A stretch of DNA of 64,000 nucleotides from an uncultured Candidatus Saccharimonadales bacterium (GTDB taxonomy: Bacteria; Patescibacteriota; Saccharimonadia; UBA4664): assembly GCA_964467655.1 (NCBI GenBank), contig CAYXSN010000001.1, positions 6,323 through 70,322 on the forward strand, written 5' to 3'. This document shows, piece after piece, positions 17,000-31,720 of this stretch (within the stretch, counting starts at the first letter, position 1; every line of letters begins with the position of its first letter). Position numbers and translations under genes: made by a program. Under the pieces are notes generated by a model. The model saw only the letters and a program-made list of their open reading frames with translations. It ran no database searches and was not told the DNA's origin.

Positions 17000-17860
17000 A
17001 TGTTCACCAAACTATGCCGACTGTTGGCCGTGCTTGTAGCGGCTGCGGTCTTTATCAGCGGTATGTTCATGACTTTGGCACTACCAAAAGCGGCGGCCGC
17101 CACCCAGATTCCCGTGAGTACTGGTATCTGGGGCGCCGTGTATTCGCAAGGTGGCTATGTGATGGCTACCGAAACTATCGACTACCACCGCCGTCACCAG
17201 GCCGGTAGTATCGGCTACATTGTGAGGAGTGAGGCCGCCTGGAACCATGCTGCGAATCAGCTGGTCCCCAAAGCTCAGCAGGTGGGCATGAGGGTCTCAC
17301 CGGTGATACTCCCCTATACCGAGGCGCCAACCCGTCAGCGGTGTCAGGCTACCAAGTACTTCGGTGGCAATCTCAACCGCGCCGTGACTAGATTGAGCCG
17401 CACTGCTGGTGTCGGCGACGTGGTCATAGATGACTTCATGGCAAATGTGACTCATTACTCACGTAAGAGCTGCAAGAGTATCAGTACTCAGCAATTTGGA
17501 GCTTGGGATAAGCAGGCGAAGCGCTATGGCAAAAGAGTTATGCCAACGCTTTATCCCCGTGATTTGAATTCAAAGAAGGCCAAGACTCTCAAAAGTCTCG
17601 ATGCCTATCGTCCCAAGGTGGTGTTCGCCTACAACAGTTTGCGCGATACTCGTAATCTGCCTAAGGCCGTACATGGTCTGCACAAACGAATGCCTCACGC
17701 ACAGGTCGTCATTATGGTGTACGCCGGTCCGTACCGGCATCAGTCAGCCAATAAAAAGGTAGTGGCGATTCAGCTGCGCCAAGCTATGGCACTCGACCGC
17801 AAATACCGGTGGGTTGTGGGTGTTTGGCAGTATAAGCCGCCGCTGCCCAAGCTCAAGTAA
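17000..17860 (+). CDS. Hypothetical secreted protein (signal-peptide-like N-terminus)
   Basis: 286-aa ORF. N-terminus MFTKLCRLLAVLVAAAVFISGMFMTLALPKAAAA looks like a signal peptide or anchor. AGGAG about 10 nt upstream of the ATG. Only plus-strand gene in this part of the window. Confidence 0.55.
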   Translation: MFTKLCRLLAVLVAAAVFISGMFMTLALPKAAAATQIPVSTGIWGAVYSQGGYVMATETIDYHRRHQAGSIGYIVRSEAAWNHAANQLVPKAQQVGMRVSPVILPYTEAPTRQRCQATKYFGGNLNRAVTRLSRTAGVGDVVIDDFMANVTHYSRKSCKSISTQQFGAWDKQAKRYGKRVMPTLYPRDLNSKKAKTLKSLDAYRPKVVFAYNSLRDTRNLPKAVHGLHKRMPHAQVVIMVYAGPYRHQSANKKVVAIQLRQAMALDRKYRWVVGVWQYKPPLPKLK

Positions 17861-17902
17861 CTCTCGCCCGCCCCTAGGACTCGTTCCTGGGGGCCATTAA
17901 CT

Positions 17903-18328
17903 TTATACCTGCGCACCTTCTCTGGCCTGATTGGCCCAGTGGTCGGCTAGTTCGTTGCCTTCGTCGTTGTTGTGTCCCCTCACCCATACCAATGTAGCAT
18001 TCGACTTTTGATACAACTCGTAGGCTTCTTGGACGATATCGAGGTTTTTGATGGGCCCGCCGGGTTTTTTCCAGCCCTTTTTCTCCCAGCCCGGCGCCCA
18101 TTTGGTGATGACATTGATCCAAAATTCGCTATCGGTATGAATGGCGCAAGCCCGGCCGGCGGCGTCTTGTAAGGCAGCAATCAGTGCCCTGCCTTCCATA
18201 CGGATATTGGTGGCGTTGGCGTCGCTACCTAAGATATGAGGTTTCATGTTTTTGATAACGGCAAAGCCTCCGGGTCCAGGGTTGGGTACGCAGCTGCCGT
18301 CGGTGTAATAGATGATGGATTCTGTCAT
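17903..18328 (-). CDS. rnhA: Ribonuclease HI
   Basis: 141-aa ORF MTESIIYYTDGSCVPNPGPGGFAVI...NNDEGNELADHWANQAREG with the RNase H DEDD catalytic pattern. No reverse-transcriptase domain attached. Confidence 0.9.
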   Translation of the reverse strand: MTESIIYYTDGSCVPNPGPGGFAVIKNMKPHILGSDANATNIRMEGRALIAALQDAAGRACAIHTDSEFWINVITKWAPGWEKKGWKKPGGPIKNLDIVQEAYELYQKSNATLVWVRGHNNDEGNELADHWANQAREGAQV

Positions 18329-18562
18329 GGTACTTATGATAGCAACTTTACGGATGAGGGTGTTACCACAAATTGCTATTATGTATTTTCGTTCAATATA
18401 TAATTCATGATTTCAGCAGAAAGATTGGAAAAGATTTAACGAGATTGTGGCTAATTGCTCGCAAAAACTGCCGATGCTACTGCGCAGCGAGGCATCTGAT
18501 TCGTTGTAAACGGGCATAATTACCAATGATTGGCTGAGCATTCATTGCGTTGATCATAACTT

Positions 18563-18582
18563 AAAACCCCCGTTTCCGGGGG
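18563..18582 (-). terminator. Rho-independent terminator downstream of rpsJ
   Basis: GC-rich hairpin CCCCCG-TTTC-CGGGGG (plus 18567-18582), followed on the minus strand by a T run. Confidence 0.55.
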
Positions 18583-18600
18583 CTTTGTCTGAGGACGAAA

Positions 18601-18933
18601 TTACATTTTGATTTCGATGTCGACGCCGGCGGGGAGGTTGAGATTCATGAGGGCGTCGATGGTTTTGGGGGTGGGCTCGGTGAGGTCGATGAGCCGCTTG
18701 TGAGTGCGCATTTCGAATTGCTCACGGGCATCTTTGTAGATGTGCGGGCTACGGAGCACTGTCAGGCTGTTCTTCTCGGTTGGGAGAGGAATCGGACCGG
18801 CGACATGAGCACCGGTTCGGGTAGCTGTGTCAATAATCTGCTTGGCGGATTGGTCAATGACCTTGGAGTCGTAAGCCTTGAGCCGGATGCGGATACGCTG
18901 CTTCTCGGGGGCTTTGGTTTCGGCGGTTGCCAT
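18601..18933 (-). CDS. rpsJ: 30S ribosomal protein S10
   Basis: 110-aa ORF ...[43 protein letters not shown]...[30 protein letters not shown], canonical S10. Separated from rplC by 4.7 kb. Confidence 0.95.
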
Positions 18934-19000
18934 GGGTAGGTACTATCTCTCGATAAATTAATATTGATGTGAGCCACACTCTTATCGTGGTTTCCTGCTG

Positions 19001-19030
19001 ATTTAAGCATAACTGTACCTGATTTGTCAA
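19001..19030 (-). promoter_or_regulatory. Candidate sigma70-like promoter for rpsJ (TTGACA-18nt-TTAAAT)
   Basis: Minus strand reads TTGACA (plus 19025-19030), 18 nt, then TTAAAT (plus 19001-19006), about 60 nt upstream of the rpsJ ATG. Confidence 0.4.
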
Positions 19031-19037
19031 ATATTTA

Positions 19038-19071
19038 GCCCCGCTCAGTAGGAGTTTTCACTGAGCGGGGC
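19038..19071 (-). terminator. Perfect 12-bp hairpin downstream of the low-GC ORF; possible terminator
   Basis: GCCCCGCTCAGT / ACTGAGCGGGGC inverted repeat with a 10-nt loop. The following minus-strand sequence is A/U-rich but has no clean U tract. Confidence 0.35.
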
Positions 19072-19124
19072 TGTGGGTCAATGGGTGGGCCGGGTTTGAC
19101 CCGCCACAAATGCTTTGATGCGCG

Positions 19125-20114
19125 TCATGGACTGTCCTTTGCTGGGTTTGTGGGTTCGATAATCGTTAGAATATAATCCAGAAATGTCTGCATATGACAA
19201 CTTAAATCCGATTCGACATCACCAGTATCGCATTTTGAAGCAATAGTCTTTGCCCTACGACTGAACGAGATGCCAATTTCGTCACTTGTAGATGTACAAA
19301 TAACAAAACTGCCGTAATCGTCAGAGTAATATTCGCCGAACGCGAATGTTAAACTGAAGTTGCTCGATAATCTACCGAAGATCGCTACAATTAGGCAAGG
19401 CTTGGGAGCTGAGGCTTTAAGTATAGTAATCTGTGTTATTGGTTCATTCGGATCCCAATCTAAAAGTGCAGCTTCCCATCCGTATATGTAGACCGCATTC
19501 AGAGACAACACCAACCTGTCTATTCTTGATTGATGCTCACTTAGACATTTCGAAAACGCATCGATTATACGTTGAACTTGCGTCGGCACAGTAGGTGCTG
19601 GATTGAGTTGTCTGATAATTATTTCGCCTGCCGAAATTAAGCCTTCGACGGCATTATTTTCTTGAAAGTGGTAGTCACTATATGATTGTTGCTGTGACCC
19701 GCTTAGATTAATCCTGACTTTGTCCCGTACATTTGCAACCAAGATATCAGTTACTTTTTGGCGCCTCCGACGTATCAGCATTACGGCTTGGAGGCTAAAT
19801 AGCCCCCGTTGAAAGCTGATGCAATATACTTTGATTGATCGCTGTGATGTAGTGGCCGGCACGAGCATATAGTACTGACCTTGGTGGTCATGTAGATTAC
19901 TGGCTAAATGGATTATGCCAGATTCGTTGACAACGCCAATTTGTTGATCTTCACGAACGAGTCCTTGGATAATTGACGCAAGTAGCTTACTGCTTCGATC
20001 GGCTGGATTCGCTATATCTGCAATGGATTCGGCTGCTGAGATAAATACATGGGCAAGCGAAGTCAGAGTCTCGTCTGGTAATGCGGTTGCCTCATTCATA
20101 TAACGTCCAATCAT
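19125..20114 (-). CDS. Hypothetical protein, low-GC ORFan inserted between tuf and rpsJ
   Basis: Long ORF (356 aa in the track; 329 aa from the first ATG downstream of the predicted promoter, MIGRYMNEATALPDE...). GC by eye is about 43-46 percent against about 57 percent in flanking genes. No recognisable domain. Flanked by a terminator (20197-20236) and a hairpin (19038-19071). Confidence 0.6.
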   Translation of the reverse strand: MIGRYMNEATALPDETLTSLAHVFISAAESIADIANPADRSSKLLASIIQGLVREDQQIGVVNESGIIHLASNLHDHQGQYYMLVPATTSQRSIKVYCISFQRGLFSLQAVMLIRRRRQKVTDILVANVRDKVRINLSGSQQQSYSDYHFQENNAVEGLISAGEIIIRQLNPAPTVPTQVQRIIDAFSKCLSEHQSRIDRLVLSLNAVYIYGWEAALLDWDPNEPITQITILKASAPKPCLIVAIFGRLSSNFSLTFAFGEYYSDDYGSFVICTSTSDEIGISFSRRAKTIASKCDTGDVESDLSCHMQTFLDYILTIIEPTNPAKDSP

Positions 20115-20151
20115 ATGGGCGGGCGACGGCAGTGTGTAAAGGTGCCGCCTG

Positions 20152-20180
20152 ATTATGCCGTAGTAATGGCAACTTGGCAA
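20152..20180 (-). promoter_or_regulatory. Candidate promoter for the low-GC ORF (TTGCCA-17nt-CATAAT)
   Basis: Minus strand reads TTGCCA (plus 20175-20180), 17 nt, then CATAAT (plus 20152-20157), about 40 nt upstream of the ATG at 20114. Confidence 0.35.
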
Positions 20181-20196
20181 TGATTTTGGACACAAC

Positions 20197-20236
20197 TAAA
20201 AACAGGCTCCGGTTGGGAGCCTGTTTTTAGTTTTTT
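20197..20236 (-). terminator. Bidirectional rho-independent terminator downstream of tuf
   Basis: 9-bp stem ACAGGCTCC-GGTTG-GGAGCCTGT, flanked by an A run upstream and TTTTTAGTTTTTT downstream. On the minus strand it sits 11 nt after the tuf stop. Confidence 0.6.
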
Positions 20237-20247
20237 GTAACGAGGCG

Positions 20248-21432
20248 TTACTTGATGACTTTAGTTACCACACCGGCGCCAACGGTTCGGCCACCTTCGC
20301 GGATAGCGAAGCGCAGGCCTTCTTCCATGGCGATCGGAGCGATCAACTCAACTTTCATCTTGATGTCGTCGCCAGGCATGACCATCTCAACGCCTTCAGG
20401 CAAGATGACAGCACCGGTTACATCGGTGGTGCGGACGTAGAACTGAGGCTTGTAGCCCTTGAAGAACGGAGTGTGACGGCCGCCCTCATCCTTGTTCAAG
20501 ACGTACACCTGGGCCTCAAACTCGGTGTGAGGAGTAACGGTACCGGGCTTAGCCAAAACCTGGCCGCGCTCGATGTCGGTACGTTCAACGCCGCGCAGCA
20601 AAGCTCCCACGTTGTCACCGGCCTGGGCGTCAGGCAGCAGTTTCTTGAACATTTCAACGCCGGTTACGACGGTTTTCTTGGTGGGGCGGATACCGACGAT
20701 TTCAACTTCGTCGTTGACCTTGAGGACACCCTGGTCGATGCGGCCGGTGGCAACAGTACCGCGGCCTTTGATCGAGAAGACGTCTTCAATAGCCATCAAA
20801 AACGGCTTGTCGACTTCGCGCTTGGGCTCAGGGAAGTAGTCGTCCATAGCTTTGACGAGGTCTAAAATGGACTGCTCGTTGTCGGCATCGCCTTCGAGAG
20901 CCTTGAGGGCAGAGCCCTTGATGATCGGGCAGTTCTCGTCGAACTCGTTCTTGGCGAGGAGCTCGCGGATTTCCATCTCGACCAATTCGGCCAGCTCTGG
21001 GTCGGCCATGTCCATTTTGTTCATGTAAACCAGAATGGAAGGCACACCCACCTGGCGGGCCAACAGAATGTGCTCGCGGGTCTGAGGCATGGGGCCATCG
21101 GCAGCAGATACCACGAGGATGGCACCATCAACCTGGGCGGCGCCGGTGATCATGTTTTTAACGTAGTCAGCGTGACCAGGCATGTCGACGTGGGCGTAGT
21201 GACGCTTCTCGGACTCATATTCCTGGTGGCTGGTAGCGATGGTAATACCACGCTGGCGCTCTTCGGGAGCGTTGTCAATCTGGTCGTAAGCGACCGGCTT
21301 GTTGATGTCTGAAGGCATCTTCTTTGCCAGTACCGAGGTAATGGCGGCGGTCAACGTGGTTTTACCGTGGTCGACGTGACCCATAGTGCCCACATTGAGG
21401 TGCGGTTTGTTGCGCTGGAATGTATCAGCCAT
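20248..21432 (-). CDS. tuf: Elongation factor Tu
   Basis: 394-aa [34 protein letters not shown]...[18 protein letters not shown], canonical EF-Tu G-domain motifs. AAGGAG 6 nt upstream of the ATG. Confidence 0.97.
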
Positions 21433-21527
21433 ACAATCTCCTTAAAAAAATTATGATTCGTCCCACGCCCCACTCAGGCGTGGGAATGCGGGTCAGCATA
21501 AAAATACTGCCCGCATTGGACGTAGGT

Positions 21528-21557
21528 ATTATAGGGGTTTTGAGCGCCTTTTGTAAA
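21528..21557 (-). promoter_or_regulatory. Candidate tuf promoter (TTTACA-18nt-TATAAT)
   Basis: Minus strand reads TTTACA (plus 21552-21557), 18 nt, then TATAAT (plus 21528-21533). Two hairpins lie in the roughly 90-nt leader. Confidence 0.45.
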
Positions 21558-21657
21558 GTAGTAGGTGCCGCCAGGGATTAACGGTTTGTCCTGTGTGGGT
21601 TACGTTCCCACTCCGGCCAATAATGGTGTTATGCCTGATAGTGACATTTTGGAGGGA

Positions 21658-22221
21658 TTATTTGATGTGGCCCAGATGGATGCCGGCTAGCATGAGCGCG
21701 GCGATGGTCTGGCCATTTGTAATTGTGCCGTCTTTGATGAGTTTGAGGGCGCTATTCCAAGTGACGAATTTGGTGGCTTCAGGGTTGTCTGATGTGTGTC
21801 GAATACCCGGAGCCAGCTTATGGAGGGTTTGAGCTATATATACTAACGAATACTCGGGTGTACGGCCGATGAACGGATATGTTTGATGCGGCAGGAGTTG
21901 CCAGTGCTCAGCCATATAGCCAGCTTCTTCGGCCAGCTCGCGTTGGGCCATGTCGAGCGGGTCTTGCCCATCGGTGGAACCACCCGGCAGCTCAAGGGAT
22001 GGAGCGTTAATTACGAACCGGTTTTGTTCGACGAGCGCCAACCGATGACGGTTATCAAGGGCCACCACCAAAACGCTGGGTGGGCTTTCGATCCAGGTGT
22101 AGACGCTTGCCTGGCCACTTGGTTCGATGACATTATCTTCGTGCAGGCTGAAGCGGCTGTTTTGGTAAACTGTGCGGCTACTAATGCGTTGCCATTGGCT
22201 CATGCCATTATTGTATAGCAT
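21658..22221 (-). CDS. Nudix hydrolase (ADP-ribose pyrophosphatase-like)
   Basis: 187-aa ORF with a Nudix box, LPGGSTDGQDPLDMAQRELAEEAGY. Confidence 0.75.
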   Translation of the reverse strand: MLYNNGMSQWQRISSRTVYQNSRFSLHEDNVIEPSGQASVYTWIESPPSVLVVALDNRHRLALVEQNRFVINAPSLELPGGSTDGQDPLDMAQRELAEEAGYMAEHWQLLPHQTYPFIGRTPEYSLVYIAQTLHKLAPGIRHTSDNPEATKFVTWNSALKLIKDGTITNGQTIAALMLAGIHLGHIK

Positions 22222-22272
22222 AAGCGGTCCAGTAGGTAGGTACCCGCTGGACCGCTGGCCGTTACGATTGGT

Positions 22273-22728
22273 TTAACGCTTACTGGACTGAGGCCGTTTG
22301 CGCCGGACTTTGTATGGTTGAGTCCCGGGTGGAGCGGGCGTTGGTCTATTTGTCTCCCGCTTGACGCGAATGTCGAGCTCGTGATCGACACCGGCGATAG
22401 CATTGATGACATTCGTGACAACATCAAGTGCGAATCGGCGGGCGACCCGAAATTTGTCTGGTGGTACTTCATAGACTGCCACACCTGGATGTTTGTGGTA
22501 TGTTCCGCGCAGCTCCACCCACTTTATTTGGCCGCCGAATTGCTTCATGACTGCCCTCACGCTTGAGTAGATACCGGTGTTTGGTTCGTTGACAGCCGGG
22601 TTTGGGGCAAACTCAAAGGTTCTTTGGGGCCAGCACCGCTGCAAGTCGGGCGGTAGCACGAGCAGTAGCGTGCCATGGCGAGGATCTTGGTGGATAAACT
22701 CTACGCTCACAACGATAGTTGTCGTCAT
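22273..22728 (-). CDS. Hypothetical protein (151 aa) co-oriented with the downstream Nudix gene
   Basis: Start trimmed to MTTTIVVSVEF... (GGAG 7 nt upstream), the first ATG after the predicted promoter. Basic Pro-rich C-terminal tail. No family recognised; a Tpt1/KptA resemblance was checked and rejected. Confidence 0.5.
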   Translation of the reverse strand: MTTTIVVSVEFIHQDPRHGTLLLVLPPDLQRCWPQRTFEFAPNPAVNEPNTGIYSSVRAVMKQFGGQIKWVELRGTYHKHPGVAVYEVPPDKFRVARRFALDVVTNVINAIAGVDHELDIRVKRETNRPTPAPPGTQPYKVRRKRPQSSKR

Positions 22729-22792
22729 TGTCACTCCACTAGGATTCGGGGTTGGATGAAGTATAAGGTGCTCTGGACCGGCGGGTACTTGT

Positions 22793-22821
22793 ATAATAGG
22801 CACCCACACCAGAGACGTCAA
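22793..22821 (-). promoter_or_regulatory. Strong sigma70-like promoter (TTGACG-17nt-TATTAT) for the hyp151-Nudix pair
   Basis: Minus strand reads TTGACG (plus 22816-22821), 17 nt, then TATTAT (plus 22793-22798), immediately after the fusA terminator. Confidence 0.5.
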
Positions 22822-22834
22822 ATCAAGACACATC

Positions 22835-22865
22835 AAAACGGCAGCTCATTATGAGCTACCGTTTT
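22835..22865 (-). terminator. Rho-independent terminator downstream of fusA
   Basis: Near-perfect palindrome AAAACGGCAGCTCAT-T-ATGAGCTACCGTTTT on plus, with one G-U wobble on the minus-strand RNA. It follows the fusA stop by about 20 nt. Confidence 0.55.
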
Positions 22866-22883
22866 GGATGACGCAGAGCGAAA

Positions 22884-24965
22884 CTAGTCTTTTTTTGCAC
22901 CTGATTTGGCCATAATCTCTTCGGCTACCTGGCGTGGCACTTCTTCGTAATGGTCGAATTCCATAGAGTTCGAAGCCCGACCTTGAGTCATTGACCTGAG
23001 AGTCGTGGTGTAGCCAAACATTTCGGCCAGCGGCACGAAGGCATCGATGATTTTGGCACCGGAGCGGTCTTCCATTTTCTCGATGCGTCCCCGCTTGGAG
23101 TTGAGGTCGCCGATGACGTCGCCCATGAACTCTTCTGGTACGGTCACTTCAACTTTCATAATTGGCTCGAGGATGATGGGCTCAGCCTTTTTGGCAGCTG
23201 CCTGGAAGGCCATGGAACCGGCCACCTTGAAGGCCATTTCATTGGAGTCGACATCGTGATATGAGCCGTCGTACAGTTTGGCTTTGATATCCACCATCGG
23301 GAAGCCGGCTGAAACGCCGTTTTGCATGGCTTCCTTCACGCCTTCTTCGGTTGGCTTGATGTACTCGCGAGGCACGACACCACCGACAATGGCGTTTTCA
23401 AACTCGAATCCGCCACCTGGTTCAAGTGGTGTCAGTTCAACCCAGACATCGCCGTACTGACCGCGACCACCTGATTGGCGGACGAATTTGCCTTGGGCCT
23501 GGGCGGTCTTCTTGATGGTTTCACGGTAAGCTACCTGAGGCTTGCCAACGTTGGCTTCTACCTTGAACTCACGTTTCATACGATCAACGAGGATATCGAG
23601 ATGGAGCTCACCCATGCCCTCGAGAATGGTTTGAGCAGTCTGCTCGTCGGTGTGCACACGGAAAGTGGGATCTTCTTCGGCTAAACGCTGAAGGGCATTA
23701 CCCATCTTCTCTTGGTCAGACTTGGTCTTGGGTTCTACGGCAATTGAGATGACCGGCTCGGGGAAGGTGATGCTCTCGAGAATCACTGGATGGTCAAGAT
23801 CGGTGAGAGTATGCCCGGTTGTGGTGCCCTTGAGGCCGACGGCGGCGGCAATTTCACCGGCGGATACTTCTTGGACTTCTTCGCGAGAGTTGGCGTGCAT
23901 GAGTACGAGGCGGCCGATGCGTTCTTTTTCGCCAGTTGAGGCGTTTAAGATATATGAACCGCTTTTGAGTACGCCTGAGTATACCCTGAAGAAAGCTAGC
24001 TTACCAATGAATGGGTCGGTGGCAATCTTGAAGGCCAGGGCGCTAAATGGCTCTTCGTCGGCTGGTTTGCGCTCAAGCTCTTCGCCAGATTTGGGATTGG
24101 TGCCCCAAACTGAACCAACGTCGAGCGGGTTGGGCAGGAAGTCGACCATGGCATCGAGCAATTTTTCCACGATGACTCCGCGACCATCGCCACCGGTTAC
24201 GGCAAAGAACTGACCCGAGAGCACGCTTTTGCGGATAGCGCTCTTGAGTTCATCGGTAGTCAGCTCGTGGCCTTCGAGGTACTTCTCCATAAGGGCGTCA
24301 TCGGCTTCCACGGCGGCTTCCACCAAATGTTGGCGGTAATTCTTGGCTTTTTCGAGCATGTCGGCTGGAATTTCGCCCTCAATCAGCTCGTGGTCGTGGT
24401 ATTCCTTGTAGGTGTAGGCTTTCATTTCGATAAGGTCGATTACGCCATTGATGGTCTGCTCGAAACCGATGGGCAGGTGGATGGCATAGGCACGCTTGCT
24501 TAAACGCTCATGGATTGATTCGAGCGACTTGTAGAAGTCGCCGCCGGTCTGGTTGATCTTATTGATGAAGCAGATGCGCGGCACGCCGTATTTGTCGGCC
24601 TGGCGCCAAACCGTTTCTGACTGCGGCTCTACGCCCATCTTACCGTCGAACACGGTGACGGCGCCGTCGAGCACGCGCAAGCTACGCTCCACTTCTACCG
24701 TGAAATCGATGTGACCAGGGGTATCAATGATGTTGATGCGTCGACCTTTCCAAAAGCAGGTAGTGGCTGCGGAGGTAATGGTAATGCCACGTTCGCGCTC
24801 TTGCTCCATCCAGTCCATGGTGGCTTCACCTTGGTGGACTTCACCGATCTTGTGGGTTTTACCGGTGCGGTACAAAATACCCTCGGTGGTCGTGGTTTTG
24901 CCAGCATCAATGTGGGCAATAATGCCGATGTTCCGGGTGTTTTCGAGCGAGTATTGACGGGCCAT
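22884..24965 (-). CDS. fusA: Elongation factor G (start trimmed to [25 protein letters not shown])
   Basis: Canonical EF-G G-domain ([20 protein letters not shown]) and domains II-V. The 34-codon N-terminal extension in the ORF track is unlikely to be translated. Confidence 0.97.
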
Positions 24966-25027
24966 GGGGGTAGTTAGAATCCTTTCATAATAATATGTCC
25001 TACACGAAAAAAGCGTGCCAGGCACAA

Positions 25028-25057
25028 ACTTATGGTTATTATACAAGCTAACTACTT
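25028..25057 (-). promoter_or_regulatory. Candidate fusA promoter (TTGATT-18nt-TATAAT, TG immediately upstream of -10)
   Basis: Minus strand reads TTGATT (plus 25052-25057), 18 nt, then TGTATAAT (plus 25028-25035), about 60 nt upstream of the trimmed fusA ATG. AT-rich region. Confidence 0.45.
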
Positions 25058-25074
25058 GGCTAATCAAGTGCTAT
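25046..25074 (+). promoter_or_regulatory. Divergent plus-strand promoter (TTGGCT-17nt-TATTAT), back to back with the fusA promoter
   Basis: Plus strand reads TTGGCT (25046-25051), 17 nt, then TATTAT (25069-25074). Its -35 abuts the -35 of the minus-strand fusA promoter. Confidence 0.4.
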
Positions 25075-25116
25075 ATGGTATTATTTTGTGCGTTCGGTAC
25101 CTACACAATCGAGACG

Positions 25117-25293
25117 ATGAAAGCAGGTAACATCATGAGTTGGCCCGGTCTTAAGCGTACGAACGGCACGGTTCCGTCTCCAGAGAAGCCTGACGTGATA
25201 AGGGGTAGGCGAAAGGCGCAAGAAGAGAAGGAAGAGCAAGAGCGCCTAGCGCGTCGTGGTAGGTGGATGCCAAGAGCCTTTAAGAAGAAGTAA
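25117..25293 (+). CDS. Small basic hypothetical protein (58 aa); coding status uncertain
   Basis: ATG at 25117 gives MKAGNIMSWPGLKRTNGTVPSPEKPDVIRGRRKAQEEKEEQERLARRGRWMPRAFKKK. It lies between the plus-strand promoter and a plus-strand intrinsic terminator. Weak SD. Confidence 0.3.
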   Translation: MKAGNIMSWPGLKRTNGTVPSPEKPDVIRGRRKAQEEKEEQERLARRGRWMPRAFKKK

Positions 25294-25432
25294 CGAGAGA
25301 ACACGCAGGATAGTCATAAGCCCGGAAAATGATCTGCCTGACTGGCATTCTTCCGAACTGATACCCCTAAGGAGCAAGCATGACTAACTACGATTCAGAA
25401 AATAGGCGCGGTGAGCGTACCTAAGCACCACC

Positions 25433-25470
25433 AGCCCGTTACGCGATCCTTGCGTAGCGGGCTTTTACTT
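25433..25470 (+). terminator. Plus-strand rho-independent terminator (12-bp stem plus T tract)
   Basis: AGCCCGTTACGC-GATCCTT-GCGTAGCGGGCT followed by TTTTACTT. The same hairpin sits right at the mpl stop on the minus strand but has no U tract there. Confidence 0.55.
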
Positions 25471-26847
25471 GGCGTTGAGGGACGTTGCTAATTCGTTGGC
25501 CAGATTGTCAAATCCTGAGACCGTCATGCATACCAAAACATCACCTGGCTGGATATGGGCCTTGAGGTGGGTCACGACTTCGGGTCGGTTTTCCAGATAT
25601 GTGGCCGTTTTCCCGGCAACTTTAGCGACATCGGCGCCCGAAACAGTATGGGAGAGGTGGGCTTCGCGAGCACCTTCGATCCCGGTAATAATGCTCATGT
25701 CGGCTTCGTTGAACGCATTTGCATAGTTTGCCAGTAGCGCGGCTGTGCGTGAATAGGTATGCGGTCTGAAGACGGCAATAATGCGACGATGGCGGTAATG
25801 CAGACGGGCGGCTTCTAGAGTGGCAGCTACCTCCGTTGGGTGGTGAGCGTAATCGTCGATGACCGTGACGGCATCATCACTGGTAGTCAGGCGGTTGAAC
25901 CGTCGGTATGAGCCTTTGAACTCTGTGGCGCCGTTGATAACTTGGCCGAGATCGAGACCTGCCTTGAGGACAGCCGCGATGGCGGACAGCGAATTGAGGA
26001 CATTGTGGCGACCAAACACCGGGAGGGCGACGCGTCCGAGCACATTGCCGTACGCCACCACATCAAATTCGATTCCCGCCGGTACATAGGCAATGTTGCG
26101 GGCTTGATAATCGCCCGTGTGCAGGCCATATGTGATGATGTCACAAGGAGCCACCCGGGCTGCCGCTAGGGCGTTGCTGTTTTCGGCGCAGACAATCAGG
26201 CGCCCGGACTTTGGCAAAGCGGCTATGATTTCTTCGAATCGGCTCATGACGGCAGCTTCATTGACAAAGAAATCGGGATGATCCATTTCGATGTTGGTAA
26301 CAATGAGCGTATCTGGGTGATAGTACTGGAGTTTGGACTTGTCCTCCAAAGGACTGGCTCGATACTCGTCACCTTCGACCACCATTGTCTTGGCACCAGA
26401 TAGACGCACCGATGAATCGAAGTTGAAAGGCTGGATGCCGATGACATAATCGGGGTGGCGGCCAGCGCTCTCGAGTAGCCAGGTGATTAGCGAGCTGGTG
26501 GTAGTCTTGCCGTGAGTGCCGGCCACTGCTATTACGTGAGCTTTGGCTGACAGTTCACCTACGAGCTGAGCCCAGGATTTGACAGATATATCATGCTTGG
26601 CAGCTTCAATGATGACGGGGGTATCTGGTGATACATGAGCTCCTGTGACAATGACGGCCTCAACGCCGTGCAGATCGGCTATCTGAAACTCCCGGCTCCA
26701 CGGTATGCCATGTTCATCCAACCAAGCGGCGCCAGGGTCAGCACCAGCAGGATCAAAGCCCGAAACTTTGTACCCAAGCTGGGTGCAGGCTTCGGCCAGC
26801 CCTCGCATGGTGTGGCCGGTAATGCCAACAAAAAACAGATGTTTCAT
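25465..26847 (-). CDS. mpl: Mur ligase family protein, Mpl-like (UDP-N-acetylmuramate:L-alanyl-gamma-D-glutamyl-meso-DAP ligase) or MurC-like
   Basis: 460-aa ORF with the Mur ligase P-loop (AVAGTHGKTTTSSL) and GDEYRASPLEDKSKLQYYHPD resembling the Mpl GDEYDxAFFDKRSKF motif. Confidence 0.75.
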   Translation of the reverse strand: MKHLFFVGITGHTMRGLAEACTQLGYKVSGFDPAGADPGAAWLDEHGIPWSREFQIADLHGVEAVIVTGAHVSPDTPVIIEAAKHDISVKSWAQLVGELSAKAHVIAVAGTHGKTTTSSLITWLLESAGRHPDYVIGIQPFNFDSSVRLSGAKTMVVEGDEYRASPLEDKSKLQYYHPDTLIVTNIEMDHPDFFVNEAAVMSRFEEIIAALPKSGRLIVCAENSNALAAARVAPCDIITYGLHTGDYQARNIAYVPAGIEFDVVAYGNVLGRVALPVFGRHNVLNSLSAIAAVLKAGLDLGQVINGATEFKGSYRRFNRLTTSDDAVTVIDDYAHHPTEVAATLEAARLHYRHRRIIAVFRPHTYSRTAALLANYANAFNEADMSIITGIEGAREAHLSHTVSGADVAKVAGKTATYLENRPEVVTHLKAHIQPGDVLVCMTVSGFDNLANELATSLNAK

Positions 26848-26882
26848 GGTGCCATTGTACCATCATGCTGATAGTGCAAGAG

Positions 26883-27089
26883 TTATTTACCATTCAGATG
26901 ATGTAAGTTCATGGATTCGGTAACAAATTCTTGCCACCACCATTCGTGAGGGTTGCTGTTTTTCATCGCCTGGGCAATTGCTTGGGCTGATTTGGTTCTC
27001 AAGTGTGGTACTCGATTGATAAAATCGTCATCAAACCATTTTTGGGCCAATTTGTTACCACGCCAACCCATGAGCCACTCGATGTACAT
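26883..27089 (-). CDS. Small Trp-rich hypothetical protein (68 aa)
   Basis: ORF between mpl and the Nudix gene on the same strand. No family recognised; could be spurious. Confidence 0.3.
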   Translation of the reverse strand: MYIEWLMGWRGNKLAQKWFDDDFINRVPHLRTKSAQAIAQAMKNSNPHEWWWQEFVTESMNLHHLNGK

Positions 27090-27158
27090 GTGACCGCGGC
27101 ATATCGATGAGCATGGCGGCTTGTTCTATGAAATGGAGCGATGAGATTGACGGTTGAG

Positions 27159-27785
27159 TCATTGACTTGCCATTCGGTTTTTGACGGTAGTTCTGGCTTG
27201 AACTGTCAGATCGGGTAGGTCCAGTAGTTTTTGAAATGAATTAAGGTGATACCAAAAACGCGCGGCCAGAAAATCGTACTCCTGAGATCTCGGACCGCTG
27301 GCATCAATCAGCGCTTTCGCCTGCTGTAGTGTCATTGGCTTCACTTCAATCTTTTCGCCATTGTCGAGCTGTGGTTGGGTGTATTGGGTGGGTGCCCAGG
27401 CCAGGAATGTGTAAACTAGGCGTTCAATCCGAAAATCTTTTTGGCGGCATTCAATGAGTCGCCAATTCGCAAATGACCACCCAGTTTCCTCTGTCACTTC
27501 TCTTTGTGCGGCTTCTAGCTCGGTTTCTAGTTCAATGTCATGGGCACCAGAGGGTAAATCATAGTAGAGTGCGGAACCGGGCTGCTGTTGGTGGAGAACC
27601 AGGAGTTTATCATCGACGAGACATAATACCTCCACCGTATCAGGGCGTTTGGCCATCTCAAACGTTGCGGTGCTGCCGTCGAACATGGTCTGAGGCCACT
27701 GATAGACATCAAACATCACCCCCTCGAAGACCCGCTTGGCTTGAGAAGGTATGGTTCTAGCATATGGCGGCAGATATTGACGCAT
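27159..27785 (-). CDS. Nudix hydrolase
   Basis: 208-aa ORF with a Nudix box, SGAHDIELETELEAAQREVTEETGW. Confidence 0.8.
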   Translation of the reverse strand: MRQYLPPYARTIPSQAKRVFEGVMFDVYQWPQTMFDGSTATFEMAKRPDTVEVLCLVDDKLLVLHQQQPGSALYYDLPSGAHDIELETELEAAQREVTEETGWSFANWRLIECRQKDFRIERLVYTFLAWAPTQYTQPQLDNGEKIEVKPMTLQQAKALIDASGPRSQEYDFLAARFWYHLNSFQKLLDLPDLTVQARTTVKNRMASQ

Positions 27786-27787
27786 GG

Positions 27788-29458
27788 TTATAGTTTAGCA
27801 GTCACAGGCTCCAGCTCAAACAGGTCACCGCCGACAGCAGCTGCAAAATAGCTGTCGTGAGAAATATAGAGAATAGCGCCTCGGTATTTCGTGAGCGCCC
27901 GCTCAAGCTCCTCAATACTTGGTAGATCGAGATGGTTGGTTGGTTCATCGAGTACCAGCAAATTGGGGTTAGCACACAACATTTTGATAAGTTGGAACCT
28001 GGCCTTTTGACCACCAGAGAGACGCTCGATGTCGAGGCGGCCGTCATTTTGGGGGTCGAAAAGATAATCGGCCAAAATTTGTCTGACTTTTTGGTCATTA
28101 ATTGGTATGCCAGCTTCATCGTAGACCCGCCTGATGGCCGGCCCTAGTGGCAACTTGAGGTAGCTCTCGGCGATTTCTTGCTCGTACACGCCGATGACAG
28201 TTTTGGCTCCTACGCCGATATCGCCGCTATAGACAGCACTTGGAATGCGCTGTCCGGCTGCTACCGCCAAGATGGCTTTGACGAGCGTTGATTTACCGAG
28301 TCCATTGCGGCCTTTTATCTGCAGCCTCTCCCCCACTGCCAGGTCGAAACTCACGGGATTAAATAATTGTGCATGGTAACCCAGACTGACTCCATCTACT
28401 GTAAACAGACTTCTGGCCCTATGTTCGCCGCCGGTGCGCAACCTAATATTGCGAGCTTTGTATTTATCGTATTTAGCCACTACTTTGTCTTGTTGTTTGT
28501 CGAGTGTTTCCTGATCGATCCAGAAATCGGGTTTTGTCATGGTGGCCTGCAACTCATCACGTTCTTTGGTGAGGCGCTTCTCCAGGAGCATGAAGGGGTT
28601 TGTTTTGTCAGCAGTGCCACTCCAGCCGGCTTTGCGGGCTTTGGCGTCGCGGATGGCTTTTTCGAGCTTAGTGAGTCGTTTTTGGGCGTTTTCGTACGAG
28701 TCAATAGCTTTGGCGGTGGCGGCGCCGTTTTGTTGCAGATAGGCGTCGTAATTACCAGGAAAACTGAGAACCTCCCTGGCTTTGATTTCGACAATTCTGT
28801 CGACGTGCGCCAGTACGTCGCGGTCGTGAGTGACCACTACTACTGCTTGCTTGGATTTGGCGAGCCAATCAATGAATATCTGCTTGGCTACATAGTCCAT
28901 ATGATTGGTAGGCTCGTCGATGAGCGCCAGATCAGCGTCTGACAGCGTCACTTTGACGAGTTCCACAAAGCGCTTTTGTCCACCCGACAAGTGACCAAAC
29001 GATCCATCGATGCGGTCCGGTGGTAATTGGAAGGTAGCGAGTTCAGTGCGCACGTCGGCCTCGGCGTCGTAATACCCTAGCTCGCCAAACCGGGTGAGGG
29101 CATCGGAATAAGCTTCAATTTTGGTCATATCCTCCCCCATTTCCAGCGGATACGTGTCGATAACGTGCTTCAGCCGCGCGTAATCTGGTAGGTTCTCCAG
29201 GATGTACTCAAGCACCGGTTTGTCGGCCAGTCCATGGTGCTCCTGGGTAGTGGAAGCAATTATGAGCCCGCGCCGAGCATCAACGGCGCCGCTGTAATCG
29301 TGATCGGTACCGGCCATGATACCAAGCAAGGTGGTTTTACCGATACCGTTACGACCGATCAGCCCTACCCGCTCGCCCGGCTGGATGGTGAGGTCGAGCC
29401 CAGTGTAGAGAGTTTTGACGCCAATGGTTTTGGTTATGTTTTGGAGGTTGAGCAACAT
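27788..29458 (-). CDS. ABC-F family ATPase (EttA/Uup/YheS-like, two ABC domains, no TMD)
   Basis: 556-aa ORF with two Walker A motifs (GRNGIGKTTLL; GRNGLGKSTLV), two ABC signature motifs (LSGGQK) and an inter-domain linker. Length matches EttA-like translation factors. Confidence 0.9.
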   Translation of the reverse strand: MLLNLQNITKTIGVKTLYTGLDLTIQPGERVGLIGRNGIGKTTLLGIMAGTDHDYSGAVDARRGLIIASTTQEHHGLADKPVLEYILENLPDYARLKHVIDTYPLEMGEDMTKIEAYSDALTRFGELGYYDAEADVRTELATFQLPPDRIDGSFGHLSGGQKRFVELVKVTLSDADLALIDEPTNHMDYVAKQIFIDWLAKSKQAVVVVTHDRDVLAHVDRIVEIKAREVLSFPGNYDAYLQQNGAATAKAIDSYENAQKRLTKLEKAIRDAKARKAGWSGTADKTNPFMLLEKRLTKERDELQATMTKPDFWIDQETLDKQQDKVVAKYDKYKARNIRLRTGGEHRARSLFTVDGVSLGYHAQLFNPVSFDLAVGERLQIKGRNGLGKSTLVKAILAVAAGQRIPSAVYSGDIGVGAKTVIGVYEQEIAESYLKLPLGPAIRRVYDEAGIPINDQKVRQILADYLFDPQNDGRLDIERLSGGQKARFQLIKMLCANPNLLVLDEPTNHLDLPSIEELERALTKYRGAILYISHDSYFAAAVGGDLFELEPVTAKL

Positions 29459-29482
29459 ATCTGGAGCATTATAGCACGCTCG

Positions 29483-29965
29483 CTAGAAATCCCAGACATT
29501 GAGCCCGATGGCGTCACTGTGGCTTTTGCTTAGTCTTGATGGGTAGGCCGTTAGGATGAGCTCGAGTGTGGCACTGCAAGCGCCCGCCATGAGGTGGCCC
29601 CCGAAACCACGCATTTGGTCATCGGCAATGGCAACATGAACGTGAACAGCTGGCTGGCCGTCTACGAGCGCGACATTCCCGGCGAGCGTGGTAATCTCAA
29701 ATACGCCGGGCAGTTCGCGCGTAGTGAATTGCTTGGTATGGATGGAGTAATGAGCCAGAGTTGGGTTTTCGATTGAACCCAGGCCCGCGATTGAGGCGTT
29801 GGTAATTGTTTGGCGGGTGCAAAAACCTGTGAGTTCGGCTAAAATGTCGTCGCCAGGGTCGAACCTGAGAGCGTAAGTGCGGGCATCAAGTGAAGCAAAT
29901 TTCATAATGCTTTCATTGTAGCAGTTTGTGAGGTTTGGCGTTGTCTCCCCATACCTGGATGGCAT
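29483..29965 (-). CDS. PPC (DUF296) domain protein
   Basis: Pattern ...LRFDPGDDILAELTGFC...ASIAGLGS...TLAHY...GVFEITTLAGNV...VHVHVAIAD..MRGFGGHLMAGACSATLEL matches the PPC/DUF296 fold. The ORF track uses a GTG at 29986; the trimmed ATG is used here. Confidence 0.65.
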   Translation of the reverse strand: MPSRYGETTPNLTNCYNESIMKFASLDARTYALRFDPGDDILAELTGFCTRQTITNASIAGLGSIENPTLAHYSIHTKQFTTRELPGVFEITTLAGNVALVDGQPAVHVHVAIADDQMRGFGGHLMAGACSATLELILTAYPSRLSKSHSDAIGLNVWDF

Positions 29966-29986
29966 GGGGAGACGTGGATGTAACAC

Positions 29987-30574
29987 TCAGCCGGATGGGG
30001 TTAGCATGCGCTCAAGTGCAGCTTGACGCCATTCGAGCCAACGGCCAACCTCTGTCATGTCGTCAGCAGTGCTGACTGGCAAGAGCAACGGCCAGACGGT
30101 TTGGCACTGGTGCAGAAGTTCACCAGTATTGTAGAGCTCATTTTGCAAATCGCAGCCGCTGTGCCAGCGAGACGTCAAACTGCTGATACCAATTGGTTGC
30201 TGATCTGCGTCGAGGGGCGGCTCATGCGACGTGTAGACGATGACCTTGATGAGGTACATATGATCTTCAATGTACCTCATAGCCGCGATCGCCAGGAGGT
30301 CGGCCAGAGCTGCATGGATCTCAGGCGTGCGGTTTGGATACCGAATGAGACCTGGCAGATGGATGCGCCACTCCTGTGGGTGAGAGGTTGCTAGACAGGT
30401 ATTGATAGTGACTGCTACCGCGCTTGCTGATCCAAGCGCGGCACCGGCAGCCTGCTGGAGATGTCTCATGAGCTGTGTGAGATCCTCCCATTCTTCAGCC
30501 TGCCTGCTCGTTTGATTCGTGACTGGTCTGCTTGTGACGTTTTCGACACTGACATGAGCCATGATTTTCGCCAA
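29987..30574 (-). CDS. Hypothetical protein (195 aa)
   Basis: ORF in codon-usage-consistent sequence. Its stop abuts the alternative GTG start of the PPC gene. No family recognised. Confidence 0.45.
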   Translation of the reverse strand: MAKIMAHVSVENVTSRPVTNQTSRQAEEWEDLTQLMRHLQQAAGAALGSASAVAVTINTCLATSHPQEWRIHLPGLIRYPNRTPEIHAALADLLAIAAMRYIEDHMYLIKVIVYTSHEPPLDADQQPIGISSLTSRWHSGCDLQNELYNTGELLHQCQTVWPLLLPVSTADDMTEVGRWLEWRQAALERMLTPSG

Positions 30575-30646
30575 TCCTTGAAGGTACGTTCGGACTTGCG
30601 TATTATGACACCCTTCTGGCAGTTTGGCGATTTATTTTGCACCATC

Positions 30647-30676
30647 AAAAAAACCGCCGGTAGCAGCGGTTTTTTT
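30647..30676 (-). terminator. Bidirectional rho-independent terminator downstream of rpsG
   Basis: AAAAAAA-ACCGC-CGGTAGCA-GCGGT-TTTTTT, a 5-bp GC-rich stem flanked by A and T runs, about 20 nt after the rpsG stop on the minus strand. Confidence 0.5.
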
Positions 30677-30695
30677 GATTAGTTTGAGTGTTTGT

Positions 30696-31172: not shown

Positions 31173-31253
31173 CTTAAACTATTTCTCCTTCTATGGGATA
31201 CTACCGCTGGTTCCAGATATACACTGGGCGGTGGATGCTAAAGTGGTTAATGG

Positions 31254-31691: not shown

Positions 31692-31720
31692 AGTGGTTTT
31701 ACAGGTTACGGTTGTTAATC

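What the first reader, a model, noticed from the sequence alone, without database searches (positions are those of the whole stretch)
21433..22883. fusA and tuf are uncoupled: a terminator after fusA, then a hyp151-Nudix two-gene module under a near-consensus promoter, then a separate tuf promoter
The str operon normally runs fusA into tuf with no break. Here fusA ends in a long palindromic terminator (22835-22865). A TTGACG-17-TATTAT promoter (22793-22821) follows and drives a 151-aa unknown protein (GGAG RBS, basic Pro-rich C-terminal tail) and then a Nudix hydrolase with a standard Nudix box. tuf has its own TTTACA-18-TATAAT promoter (21528-21557) and a structured leader. An unknown protein paired with a Nudix enzyme, placed between the two elongation factors, could be a small nucleotide or ADP-ribose-handling module, possibly linked to translation-factor regulation or modification. 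This is speculative; the paired protein has no recognisable ART, macro or Tpt1 motifs.
Basis: partly seen in the sequence, partly recalled or inferred. Interest (0 to 1): 0.7.

Follow-up and report, generated by a model that had tools for sequence, protein, structure and literature searches.

The report
Orphan gene and Nudix splitting fusA-tuf
In this ultrasmall (Patescibacteria) bacterium the two elongation-factor genes are separated by an ordinary ADP-ribose-type Nudix gene and a lineage-restricted orphan gene, which is typical gene-order drift in this group and shows no sign of a translation-factor modification system.

Summary
These are a strong hairpin after fusA, a promoter-like match, a 151-aa ORF with a GGAG ribosome-binding site, a Nudix gene, and a TTTACA-18-TATAAT promoter with a folded leader before tuf.

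Comparison with relatives changes how they should be read:
- The genome is Saccharibacteria-related. In Patescibacteria, fusA-tuf spacers of 0.5-2.6 kb holding unrelated genes are common, and autonomous tuf promoters have already been used experimentally in this group.
- The Nudix belongs to the ADP-ribose pyrophosphatase family. It sits next to fusA and/or tuf in six species (between both in four), so its position is old.
- hyp151 is a real, fast-evolving orphan gene (dN/dS about 0.2). Only three species among 5.8 billion proteins carry it, and it was added later between fusA and the Nudix.
- The hyp151 promoter match is not conserved. The Nudix probably has its own leaderless promoter, with TAYAAT 6-7 nt before the ATG.
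- A 49-nt block with a 34-nt palindrome precedes the Nudix. It is nearly invariant although synonymous sites are saturated, and nothing explains it yet. This is the most interesting item.
- The tuf promoter is conserved in five species.

I found no evidence linking the pair to elongation-factor modification. hyp151 has no recognisable fold or family.

The parts
22884..24965 (-). fusA (EF-G, 693 aa, start MARQYS)
   Evidence: Pfam domains of the called gene. Best matches in GTDB genomes are 72% and below.
22834..22866 (-). Intrinsic-terminator-like hairpin after fusA
   Evidence: A hairpin of the same design but different sequence follows fusA in L093. L087 has none.
22793..22821 (-). Promoter-like match TTGACG-17-TATTAT upstream of hyp151; function doubtful
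   Evidence: Pattern match. No aligned counterpart in L093; L087 has only a weaker TTGAGC-16-TAGAAT elsewhere in the spacer.
22273..22728 (-). hyp151: orphan basic protein (151 aa, GGAG at 22734-22737)
   Evidence: Only three species-level homologues exist (98%, 50% and 35% identity), all aligned from residue 1. dN/dS is about 0.2. No family or fold was found.
22210..22258 (-). Conserved 49-nt non-coding block: 34-nt palindrome (22223-22256) followed by TATGCTA and TACAAT (22210-22215)
   Evidence: Nearly invariant in three species whose synonymous sites are saturated. Unique in the window. No Rfam match.
21658..22203 (-). Nudix hydrolase of the ADP-ribose pyrophosphatase family (181 aa from ATG 22203); no Shine-Dalgarno, probably leaderless
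   Evidence: for the family assignment. for the TAYAAT-N6-ATG pattern.
21528..21557 (-). tuf promoter TTTACA-18-TATAAT
   Evidence: Identical hexamers and spacing in L087 and L093. Also present in L100 and L102. Conservation begins exactly at the -35 box.
21433..21527 (-). tuf 5' leader: hairpin 1 (about 21486-21516), hairpin 2 (21461-21485), AAGGAG at 21438-21443
   Evidence: One search gives 26 predicted pairs, one compensatory G-C to A-U change, and near-invariance in three species.
20248..21432 (-). tuf (EF-Tu, 394 aa), followed by a hairpin plus T run at 20194-20232

Best explanation
The 1.45-kb fusA-tuf spacer is lineage-specific gene-order drift in a Saccharibacteria-related Patescibacteria genome. 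It is not a dedicated system.

In this clade the rpsL-rpsG-fusA-tuf-rpsJ-rplC cluster has taken up genes at every junction. A housekeeping Nudix hydrolase of the ADP-ribose pyrophosphatase family settled between fusA and tuf early, and its position next to these genes is retained in six species. A small, basic, fast-evolving orphan gene (hyp151) was added later between fusA and the Nudix in one subclade of three species.

Expression is most likely in separate units:
- fusA ends at an intrinsic terminator (inferred).
- hyp151 is translated from a GGAG site. Its transcript comes from a weak local promoter or from read-through (uncertain).
- The Nudix is transcribed as a leaderless mRNA from a TAYAAT box 6-7 nt before its ATG (inferred). 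A strongly constrained 34-nt palindrome lies over the -53 to -20 region and is probably a protein-binding site.
- tuf is driven by its own strong conserved promoter with a structured 95-nt leader (well supported by conservation).

The likely biochemical role of the Nudix is hydrolysis of ADP-ribose or a related ADP-sugar. The role of hyp151 is unknown. The only lead is that it is encoded directly next to the palindrome.
For: Taxon and gene order:
- EF-G is closest to an unclassified MAG (72%) and to Saccharibacteria (68-69%).
- The closest GTDB relative, L007, has the compact cluster with gaps of 56, 190 and 30 nt. The window has 5.7, 1.45 and 1.3 kb at the same junctions.
- Other Patescibacteria loci have fusA-tuf gaps of 0.5-2.6 kb holding unrelated ORFs.

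Order of arrival:
- hyp151 homologues at 50% and 35% identity both sit in a fusA-hyp-Nudix arrangement.
- Nudix orthologues at 44-47% identity sit at the same locus without hyp151: fusA-Nudix-tuf in L100, Nudix-tuf in L102 (no fusA upstream) and fusA-Nudix in L103 (no tuf nearby).

Gene reality:
- dN/dS is about 0.2, and the start codon and Shine-Dalgarno site are conserved.

Nudix family:
- Full-length matches to solved ADP-ribose pyrophosphatases, E = 1e-14 to 1e-12.
- NDPSase_N plus NUDIX domains.
- The REx2EE core is conserved.

Separate Nudix signals:
- The 49-nt block has only 3 variable columns out of 49 while dS is 1 or more, or saturated.
- TAYAAT lies 6-7 nt before the ATG in all three species.
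- The same geometry without a Shine-Dalgarno site recurs at MurC (26847), 45921 and 51624, and loosely at RNase H.

tuf promoter:
-.
- The tuf and rpsJ promoter regions of cultivated Saccharibacteria drive reporter genes as stand-alone cassettes (PMC10633639, read).
Against: - There are no transcript data. Terminator efficiency, the hyp151 promoter and the leaderless Nudix start are inferred from sequence and conservation only.
- L087 has no hairpin after fusA, so read-through into hyp151 is possible there.
- The Nudix promoter has no recognisable -35 box.
- hyp151 is never found away from the Nudix (3 of 3 species), so a functional tie cannot be excluded.
- The Nudix scores far below the NCBIfam equivalog cut-offs (47 against 169 bits for NudE; 27 against 79.6 for TIGR00052). 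Its substrate is therefore a family-level guess.
Confidence: 0.65

Rival explanations
1. hyp151 is a small nucleic-acid-binding regulator. It recognises the conserved 34-nt palindrome directly downstream of its own gene, as duplex DNA over the -35 region or as an RNA hairpin, and controls expression of the ADP-ribose pyrophosphatase.
For: - hyp151 and the full palindrome occur together in the same three species. The full palindrome is missing from the three relatives that lack hyp151.
- hyp151 is basic, pI 10.3, with a tail of pI 12 containing an invariant P-Y and Arg.
- The palindrome is far more constrained than a terminator needs to be: its loop is conserved, whereas the fusA terminator has diverged or been lost in the same genomes.
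Against: - A core motif of the element, GCATAAGCGGWCC, also lies upstream of the Nudix in L102, which has no hyp151. The element may therefore belong to the Nudix and not to hyp151.
- The half-site centres are 24 bp apart, which is off helical phase for a simple dimer.
- Adjacency is the only link.
Confidence: 0.15
2. The palindrome acts at the RNA level in a hyp151-Nudix bicistronic transcript, as a 3' stabiliser, a processing site or a U-less terminator for hyp151. The TAYAAT box is then incidental.
For: - A 14-bp hairpin is predicted at -24.5 kcal/mol for the consensus; the surrounding region folds with z = -5.1.
- The only two substitutions inside the palindrome fall at unpaired positions, the tetraloop and the 1x1 internal loop.
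- The hairpin starts 2-29 nt after the hyp151 stop codon.
Against: - No covariation: all 14 pairs are invariant.
- No U tract, while fusA and tuf in the same genome use canonical U-tailed terminators.
- Loop conservation and the fixed TAYAAT-N6/7-ATG spacing are not explained by this model.
- The core motif appears in the opposite orientation in L102, which fits a DNA site better than an RNA element.
Confidence: 0.2
3. One reading: hyp151 and the Nudix form one co-transcribed ADP-ribose-handling module under the TTGACG-17-TATTAT promoter, functionally tied to modification or regulation of EF-G or EF-Tu.
For: - The pair is adjacent in three species and lies between the two factor genes.
- The Nudix is of the ADP-ribose pyrophosphatase type.
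- A 10-of-12 promoter match exists in the window.
Against: - The promoter match is not conserved.
- The Nudix holds this locus without hyp151 in three relatives.
- Unrelated genes fill the same spacer in other Patescibacteria, including a methyltransferase-like ORF and Phd/YefM-like ORFs. L087 has an extra unrelated 362-aa gene there.
- hyp151 gave no ART, macro or Tpt1 signal.
Confidence: 0.08
4. hyp151 is a chance ORF or a decaying pseudogene and does not encode a protein.
For: - It has no family, and only three homologues exist in 5.8 billion proteins.
- Structure prediction gave low confidence.
Against: - The reading frame is intact in three species that are saturated at synonymous sites.
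- There are 35 invariant residues and dN/dS is about 0.2.
- The ATG and the GGAG/GAGG site are conserved.
- Its GC content matches its neighbours.
Confidence: 0.03

Closest known systems
Classical str operon rpsL-rpsG-fusA-tufA (E. coli and Salmonella type) and the translation-gene supercluster
   Same: The same core genes occur in the same order and on the same strand. The closest GTDB relative, L007, still has the compact form.
   Different: Every junction is interrupted here: rpsG | 5.7 kb | fusA | 1.45 kb | tuf | 1.3 kb | rpsJ | about 4.7 kb | rplC. Each core gene has promoter-like signals of its own. Multigene insertions between these operons are documented for Proteobacteria (PMC6735719).
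Autonomous tuf and rpsJ promoters of cultivated Saccharibacteria (N. lyticus TM7x, S. epibionticum), used as expression cassettes
   Same: The region upstream of tuf acts as a self-contained strong promoter in this bacterial group (PMC10633639). The window's TTTACA-18-TATAAT is conserved in five related species.
   Different: The window's promoter has not been tested. The 95-nt, nearly invariant two-hairpin leader is specific to the three-species subclade, and it diverges in L100 and L102.
ADP-ribose pyrophosphatases of the Nudix superfamily (NudF/ADPRase; PDB 8wv3, 9jax, 5c7q, 1mk1, 1v8i; also the Bacillus 'methanol dehydrogenase activator' 8zr8)
   Same: Full-length alignment over residues 10-177, with the N-terminal NDPSase_N domain, the Nudix fold and an REx2EE core.
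   Different: - The first Glu of GX5E is Gln, His or Asp in several clade members.
- Scores are far below the NCBIfam equivalog cut-offs.
- The substrate has not been tested.
Autoregulated tufB leader of Salmonella (Brandis et al. 2016, listed in the references of PMC6735719; mechanism recalled from memory, not read here)
   Same: A structured 5' leader lies directly before a tuf start codon and Shine-Dalgarno site.
   Different: There is no sequence relation and no Rfam family. No regulatory evidence exists here. The resemblance is only a lead.
Phd/YefM-like small ORF found directly upstream of tuf in many Patescibacteria
   Same: It occupies the same fusA-tuf spacer in related phyla.
   Different: It is unrelated to hyp151 (hhalign probability 0.05%) and absent from the window's spacer.

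Membership tests
Nudix hydrolase superfamily | Nudix box GX5EX7REUXEEXGU within a PF00293 domain | tested here: met
   PF00293 E = 7.7e-12, 45.8 bits against a cut-off of 21.1. The box reads G-GSTDG-Q-DPLDMAQ-RELAEEAGY. The metal-binding REx2EE is intact, and the first E is Q.
ADP-ribose pyrophosphatase (NudF/ADPRase) family | Full-length homology, including the N-terminal domain, to characterised ADPRases | tested here: met
   phmmer against PDB: 8wv3 1.8e-14, 5c7q 1.6e-12, 1mk1 7.1e-12, covering residues 10-177. PF28549 NDPSase_N plus PF00293.
ADP-ribose pyrophosphatase (NudF/NudE equivalog) | Score above the curated NCBIfam equivalog or subfamily cut-off | tested here: not met
   NudE 47.1 bits against 169; TIGR00052 27.1 against 79.55; PRK10729 17.5 against 248. 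This gives family-level assignment only.
ADP-ribose pyrophosphatase | Hydrolysis of ADP-ribose to AMP and ribose 5-phosphate | not testable with these tools
   Requires an enzyme assay.
Intrinsic (Rho-independent) terminator, after fusA | G+C-rich stem-loop followed by a U tract; termination in vivo | tested here: inconclusive
   The stem and stability criteria are met. The U tract is short and interrupted (UUUUGAUGUGUCUUG). The hairpin is conserved in design in L093 but absent in L087. Termination itself was not testable.
Sigma-70-type promoter, tuf | -35 and -10 hexamers with 16-18 nt spacing, conserved in relatives | tested here: met
   11 of 12 positions match, and the promoter is identical in three species. 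It is also present in L100 and L102. Conservation starts at the -35 box. Activity was not tested.
Sigma-70-type promoter, hyp151 (TTGACG-17-TATTAT) | Hexamers conserved in relatives | tested here: not met
   The match is present in the window only. L087 has a weaker, non-aligned TTGAGC-16-TAGAAT, and L093 has none.
   No family at E up to 10 in Pfam. Nothing in NCBIfam, and no credible match in PHROGs or PADLOC (best E 0.25 and 0.013). A PDB profile search gave only a designed ferredoxin at E = 0.0045.
Rfam RNA families (for the palindrome and the tuf leader) | Covariance-model match | tested here: not met
   No match at E up to 1 in 17000-32000. At gathering thresholds, the only hit in the whole window was one tRNA.

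The most novel reading that the evidence does not exclude
hyp151 founds a new family of small basic proteins that bind the 34-nt palindrome or hairpin next to their own gene, and so gate a leaderless ADP-ribose pyrophosphatase gene in a Saccharibacteria-related clade. This would be a previously undescribed regulator-operator pair for NAD/ADP-ribose housekeeping in ultrasmall epibiotic bacteria.
Probability: 0.12. Interest if true: 0.5.

Novelty: new variant of a known kind. Interest (0 to 1): 0.3.

Why it matters
The finding is a documented case of the conserved rpsL-rpsG-fusA-tuf-rpsJ-rplC cluster being taken apart in Patescibacteria, with each core gene running on its own promoter.

It gives a dated order of events: the Nudix arrived first, the orphan gene later.

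It also offers two short non-coding sequences under very strong constraint, the palindrome before the Nudix and the tuf promoter with its leader. These could serve as regulatory parts or test cases in the newly tractable Saccharibacteria.

It does not open a new question about translation-factor modification.

Tried and rejected
1. Family and fold of hyp151.
- Pfam, NCBIfam, PHROGs, PADLOC and a PDB profile search gave nothing credible.
- Two AlphaFold runs on 3- and 6-sequence alignments gave pLDDT 40 and 49.

2. More hyp151 relatives.
- phmmer over 1.84 billion representatives found three.
- A word-indexed search and a profile search over 5.8 billion proteins found the same three.
- GTDB genomes gave none.
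- JGI metagenomes gave only the same organism.
- Viral contigs gave none.

3. The palindrome elsewhere.
- It is unique in the window, including at 3 mismatches and with loose half-site spacing.
- It is absent from viral contigs.
- In the 103 fetched loci it occurs only at this locus.

4. hyp151 was compared with the Phd/YefM-like ORF found before tuf in other Patescibacteria. They are unrelated.

5. The 356-aa gene after tuf in the window was compared with the 362-aa gene before tuf in L087. They are unrelated, so this is not a transposed orthologue.

6. NrtR-like Nudix regulator. Considered and dropped, from knowledge of that family and not from a test: the 181-aa Nudix aligns end to end with enzymatic ADPRases, which leaves no room for a winged-helix domain.

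7. Trace of hyp151 in the spacers of the relatives that lack it. Only a 23-nt similarity was found between the L103 and L087 sequences just upstream of the hyp151 start. This is too little to decide between loss and gain.

8. A Rfam scan of L102, L103 and L093 gave only a sub-threshold Thr_leader hit.
Full report
**What is in the sequence**

All relevant genes are on the minus strand.

- fusA runs from 24965 to 22884.
- A 15-bp hairpin follows at 22866-22834. It folds at -26.8 kcal/mol, z = -7.0 against shuffles, and ends in UUUUGAUGUGUCUUG.
- A TTGACG-17-TATTAT match lies at 22821-22793.
- An ORF of 151 aa starts at ATG 22728, five bases after GGAG, and ends at 22273.
- A Nudix ORF follows, then 225 nt of spacer, then tuf (21432-20248).
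- TTTACA-18-TATAAT lies at 21557-21528.
- The 95-nt leader folds into two strong hairpins: -42.1 kcal/mol, z = -5.3.

1. Gene callers extend the small ORF to 186 aa, into the terminator. The homologues start at the position of the 151-aa form.
2. The Nudix most likely starts at ATG 22203 (MSQWQRI...). The six upstream codons contain a stop in one relative, and every orthologue starts with M-x-x-W-Q-R.
3. The Nudix box has Gln in place of the first Glu.

**Whose genome this is, and how unusual the break is**

EF-G is closest to an unclassified MAG (72%) and to two Saccharibacteria MAGs (68-69%) among species representatives. A hyp151 homologue from L087's species is deposited as a hypothetical protein of an unclassified "bacterium" with a 1.32-Mb contig.

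The closest GTDB relative, L007, has the compact rpsL-rpsG-fusA-tuf-rpsJ-rplC cluster with gaps of 56, 190 and 30 nt. In the window the same junctions measure 5.7, 1.45 and 1.3 kb, and about 4.7 kb separates rpsJ from rplC.

Across the 80 loci fetched, non-Patescibacteria mostly have fusA-tuf gaps of about 50-275 nt. Many Patescibacteria have 0.5-2.6 kb, or no tuf within 10 kb. Those spacers hold unrelated ORFs, most often a small Phd/YefM-like protein just before tuf.

The promoter regions of tuf and rpsJ from cultivated Saccharibacteria have been used as stand-alone strong promoters (PMC10633639). Multigene insertions between translation operons are described for Proteobacteria (PMC6735719).

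A separated fusA and tuf, each with its own promoter, is therefore normal for this phylum.

**The Nudix**

- It matches PF00293.
- It carries the NDPSase_N N-terminal domain.
- It aligns over its full length with solved ADP-ribose pyrophosphatases at E = 1e-14 to 1e-12.
- The REx2EE core is conserved in all orthologues.
- It does not reach any NCBIfam equivalog cut-off, so "ADP-ribose or ADP-sugar pyrophosphatase" is a family-level inference.

Orthologues at 70% identity (L087 and L093 groups) and at 44-47% identity (L100, L102, L103) sit at the same locus: directly after fusA in L100 and L103, and directly before tuf in L100 and L102. The wider arrangement rpsG-PCC-ABC-F-MurC-fusA-Nudix-tuf is shared with L100. 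The position of the Nudix is therefore old within this clade.

**hyp151**

Only three species-level homologues exist. The evidence is a full HMMER scan of 1.84 billion representatives and two searches of 5.8 billion proteins. GTDB genomes, viral contigs and, apart from the same organism, JGI metagenomes gave nothing.

The homologues are 98%, 50% and 35% identical, aligned from residue 1, with 35 invariant positions. All three lie between fusA and the Nudix.

Between the window and L087, dN is 0.42 and dS is 2.1. EF-G in the same pair is 97% identical. hyp151 is thus a real gene under purifying selection that evolves fast. Its GC content matches its neighbours.

The protein is basic, pI 10.3. 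It has a Pro- and Arg/Lys-rich tail of pI 12 that contains an invariant Pro-Tyr.

No family, domain or fold could be assigned.

The three more distant relatives have the Nudix without hyp151. hyp151 is therefore most simply a later addition to an existing fusA-Nudix-tuf arrangement. Loss in the other branch cannot be excluded.

**Signals, judged by conservation**

Synonymous sites are saturated among the three hyp151-bearing species, so conserved non-coding sequence is informative.

(a) tuf. Conservation begins exactly at the -35 box and continues to the start codon, with only scattered differences over about 130 nt. The same hexamers and spacing occur in L087 and L093. CTTTACAA...CTATAAT is also present in L100 and L102. 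In the leader, 26 pairs are predicted, with one compensatory G-C to A-U change.

(b) fusA-hyp151 spacer. This is poorly conserved. L093 has a hairpin of the same design but different sequence, and L087 has none. The window's promoter match has no counterpart in either.

(c) hyp151-Nudix spacer. A 49-nt block (22258-22210) differs at only three columns among the three species. Its sequence is CCAGCGGTCCAGCGGGTAYCTACCTRCTGGACCGCTTATGCTMTAYAAT. Its features:
- It contains a 34-nt palindrome with 14 potential pairs, all invariant. The two substitutions inside the palindrome fall at unpaired positions.
- It has no U tract.
- It ends in TAYAAT, 6-7 nt before the Nudix ATG, and that ATG has no Shine-Dalgarno site.
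- The same geometry, TAYAAT six bases before an ATG without a Shine-Dalgarno site, occurs at MurC (26847), at 45921 and at 51624, and loosely at RNase H. Only 29 of 63 ORFs have a Shine-Dalgarno-like 4-mer. Leaderless transcripts therefore seem to be in regular use in this genome.
- On that reading the palindrome covers -53 to -20 of a Nudix promoter.
- It is unique in the window and matches no Rfam family.
- The relatives without hyp151 lack the full palindrome. However, L102 carries the core GCATAAGCGGACC in the opposite orientation just upstream of its Nudix. This favours a DNA site that belongs to the Nudix gene.

**Most likely working model**

There are four expression units.

- fusA ends at an intrinsic terminator (inferred).
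- hyp151 is made from a weak or read-through transcript through its GGAG site (uncertain).
- The Nudix is made from its own leaderless promoter, under control of an unknown factor that binds the palindrome (inferred from conservation and geometry).
- tuf is made from its own strong promoter with a structured leader (well supported by conservation and by precedent in Saccharibacteria).

Nothing ties the pair to modification of EF-G or EF-Tu. The best remaining non-trivial idea is that hyp151 itself binds the palindrome, but that rests on adjacency alone.

**Verdict**

The arrangement is a lineage-specific variant of a known kind of operon break-up.

The orphan protein and the constrained palindrome are modestly interesting loose ends.

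Noticed in passing
L010 12087-12419; L011 3897-4319; L013 13929-14297; L024 4052-4456; L016 12207-12452; L008 12742-13098; L017 15511-15795: Seven Patescibacteria-type loci encode a small ORF (81-140 aa). In six it lies directly upstream of tuf; L017 has no tuf within the fetched sequence. It has a Phd/YefM-antitoxin-like N-terminus, and most copies have an acidic C-terminus ending in a FYxEPVE-like motif. PF02604 hits 5 of 7, best E = 1.3e-6. It is absent from the window's fusA-tuf spacer and unrelated to hyp151.
   Followed up: partly
window 26847, 45921, 51624, 22203, 18328 (minus strand); 43326 (plus strand): Several genes have a TAYAAT-like box 6-7 nt before the ATG and no Shine-Dalgarno site. 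Only 29 of 63 ORFs show a Shine-Dalgarno-like 4-mer. This suggests frequent leaderless mRNAs in this genome.
   Followed up: partly
window 19125-20195 (minus strand); L087 9751-10839: A low-GC (0.42-0.44) orphan of 324-356 aa sits between tuf and rpsJ in the window. L087 instead has an unrelated 362-aa orphan between the Nudix and tuf. The junctions of this cluster behave as insertion hot spots.
   Followed up: partly
window 27159-27785 (minus strand): A second Nudix gene (185-208 aa, weakly NudE-like) lies directly after the ABC-F gene, inside the 5.7-kb rpsG-fusA insertion. It is also present in L087 but absent from L100.
   Followed up: no
L102 828-1462: A 636-nt G+C-rich stretch between the Nudix and tuf has no called gene. 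It begins with TTGACA-17-TATTAT and contains repeated ...CTCTTGGGCG... segments. It has no Rfam match and may be a non-coding RNA.
   Followed up: partly
Nudix homologue list, P0010-P0060: Outside this clade, the nearest Nudix homologues are from Microbacteriaceae and other Actinomycetota at about 38-42% identity. That is almost as close as the relatives without hyp151 (44-47%). Cultivated Saccharibacteria grow on Actinobacteria hosts, so gene transfer is conceivable. No phylogeny was made.
   Followed up: no
L102 266-276 (plus) compared with window 22218-22230 (plus): The motif GCATAAGCGGWCC lies upstream of the Nudix in both subclades but in opposite orientation relative to the gene. It occurs nowhere else in the 103 fetched loci.
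   Followed up: partly
window 24966-25464: A 500-nt spacer between murC and fusA holds a TTGATT-18-TATAAT match at 25067-25038 and a strong plus-strand hairpin plus T run at 25433-25463. L087 has two small minus-strand ORFs (85 and 53 aa) in the equivalent position.
   Followed up: no
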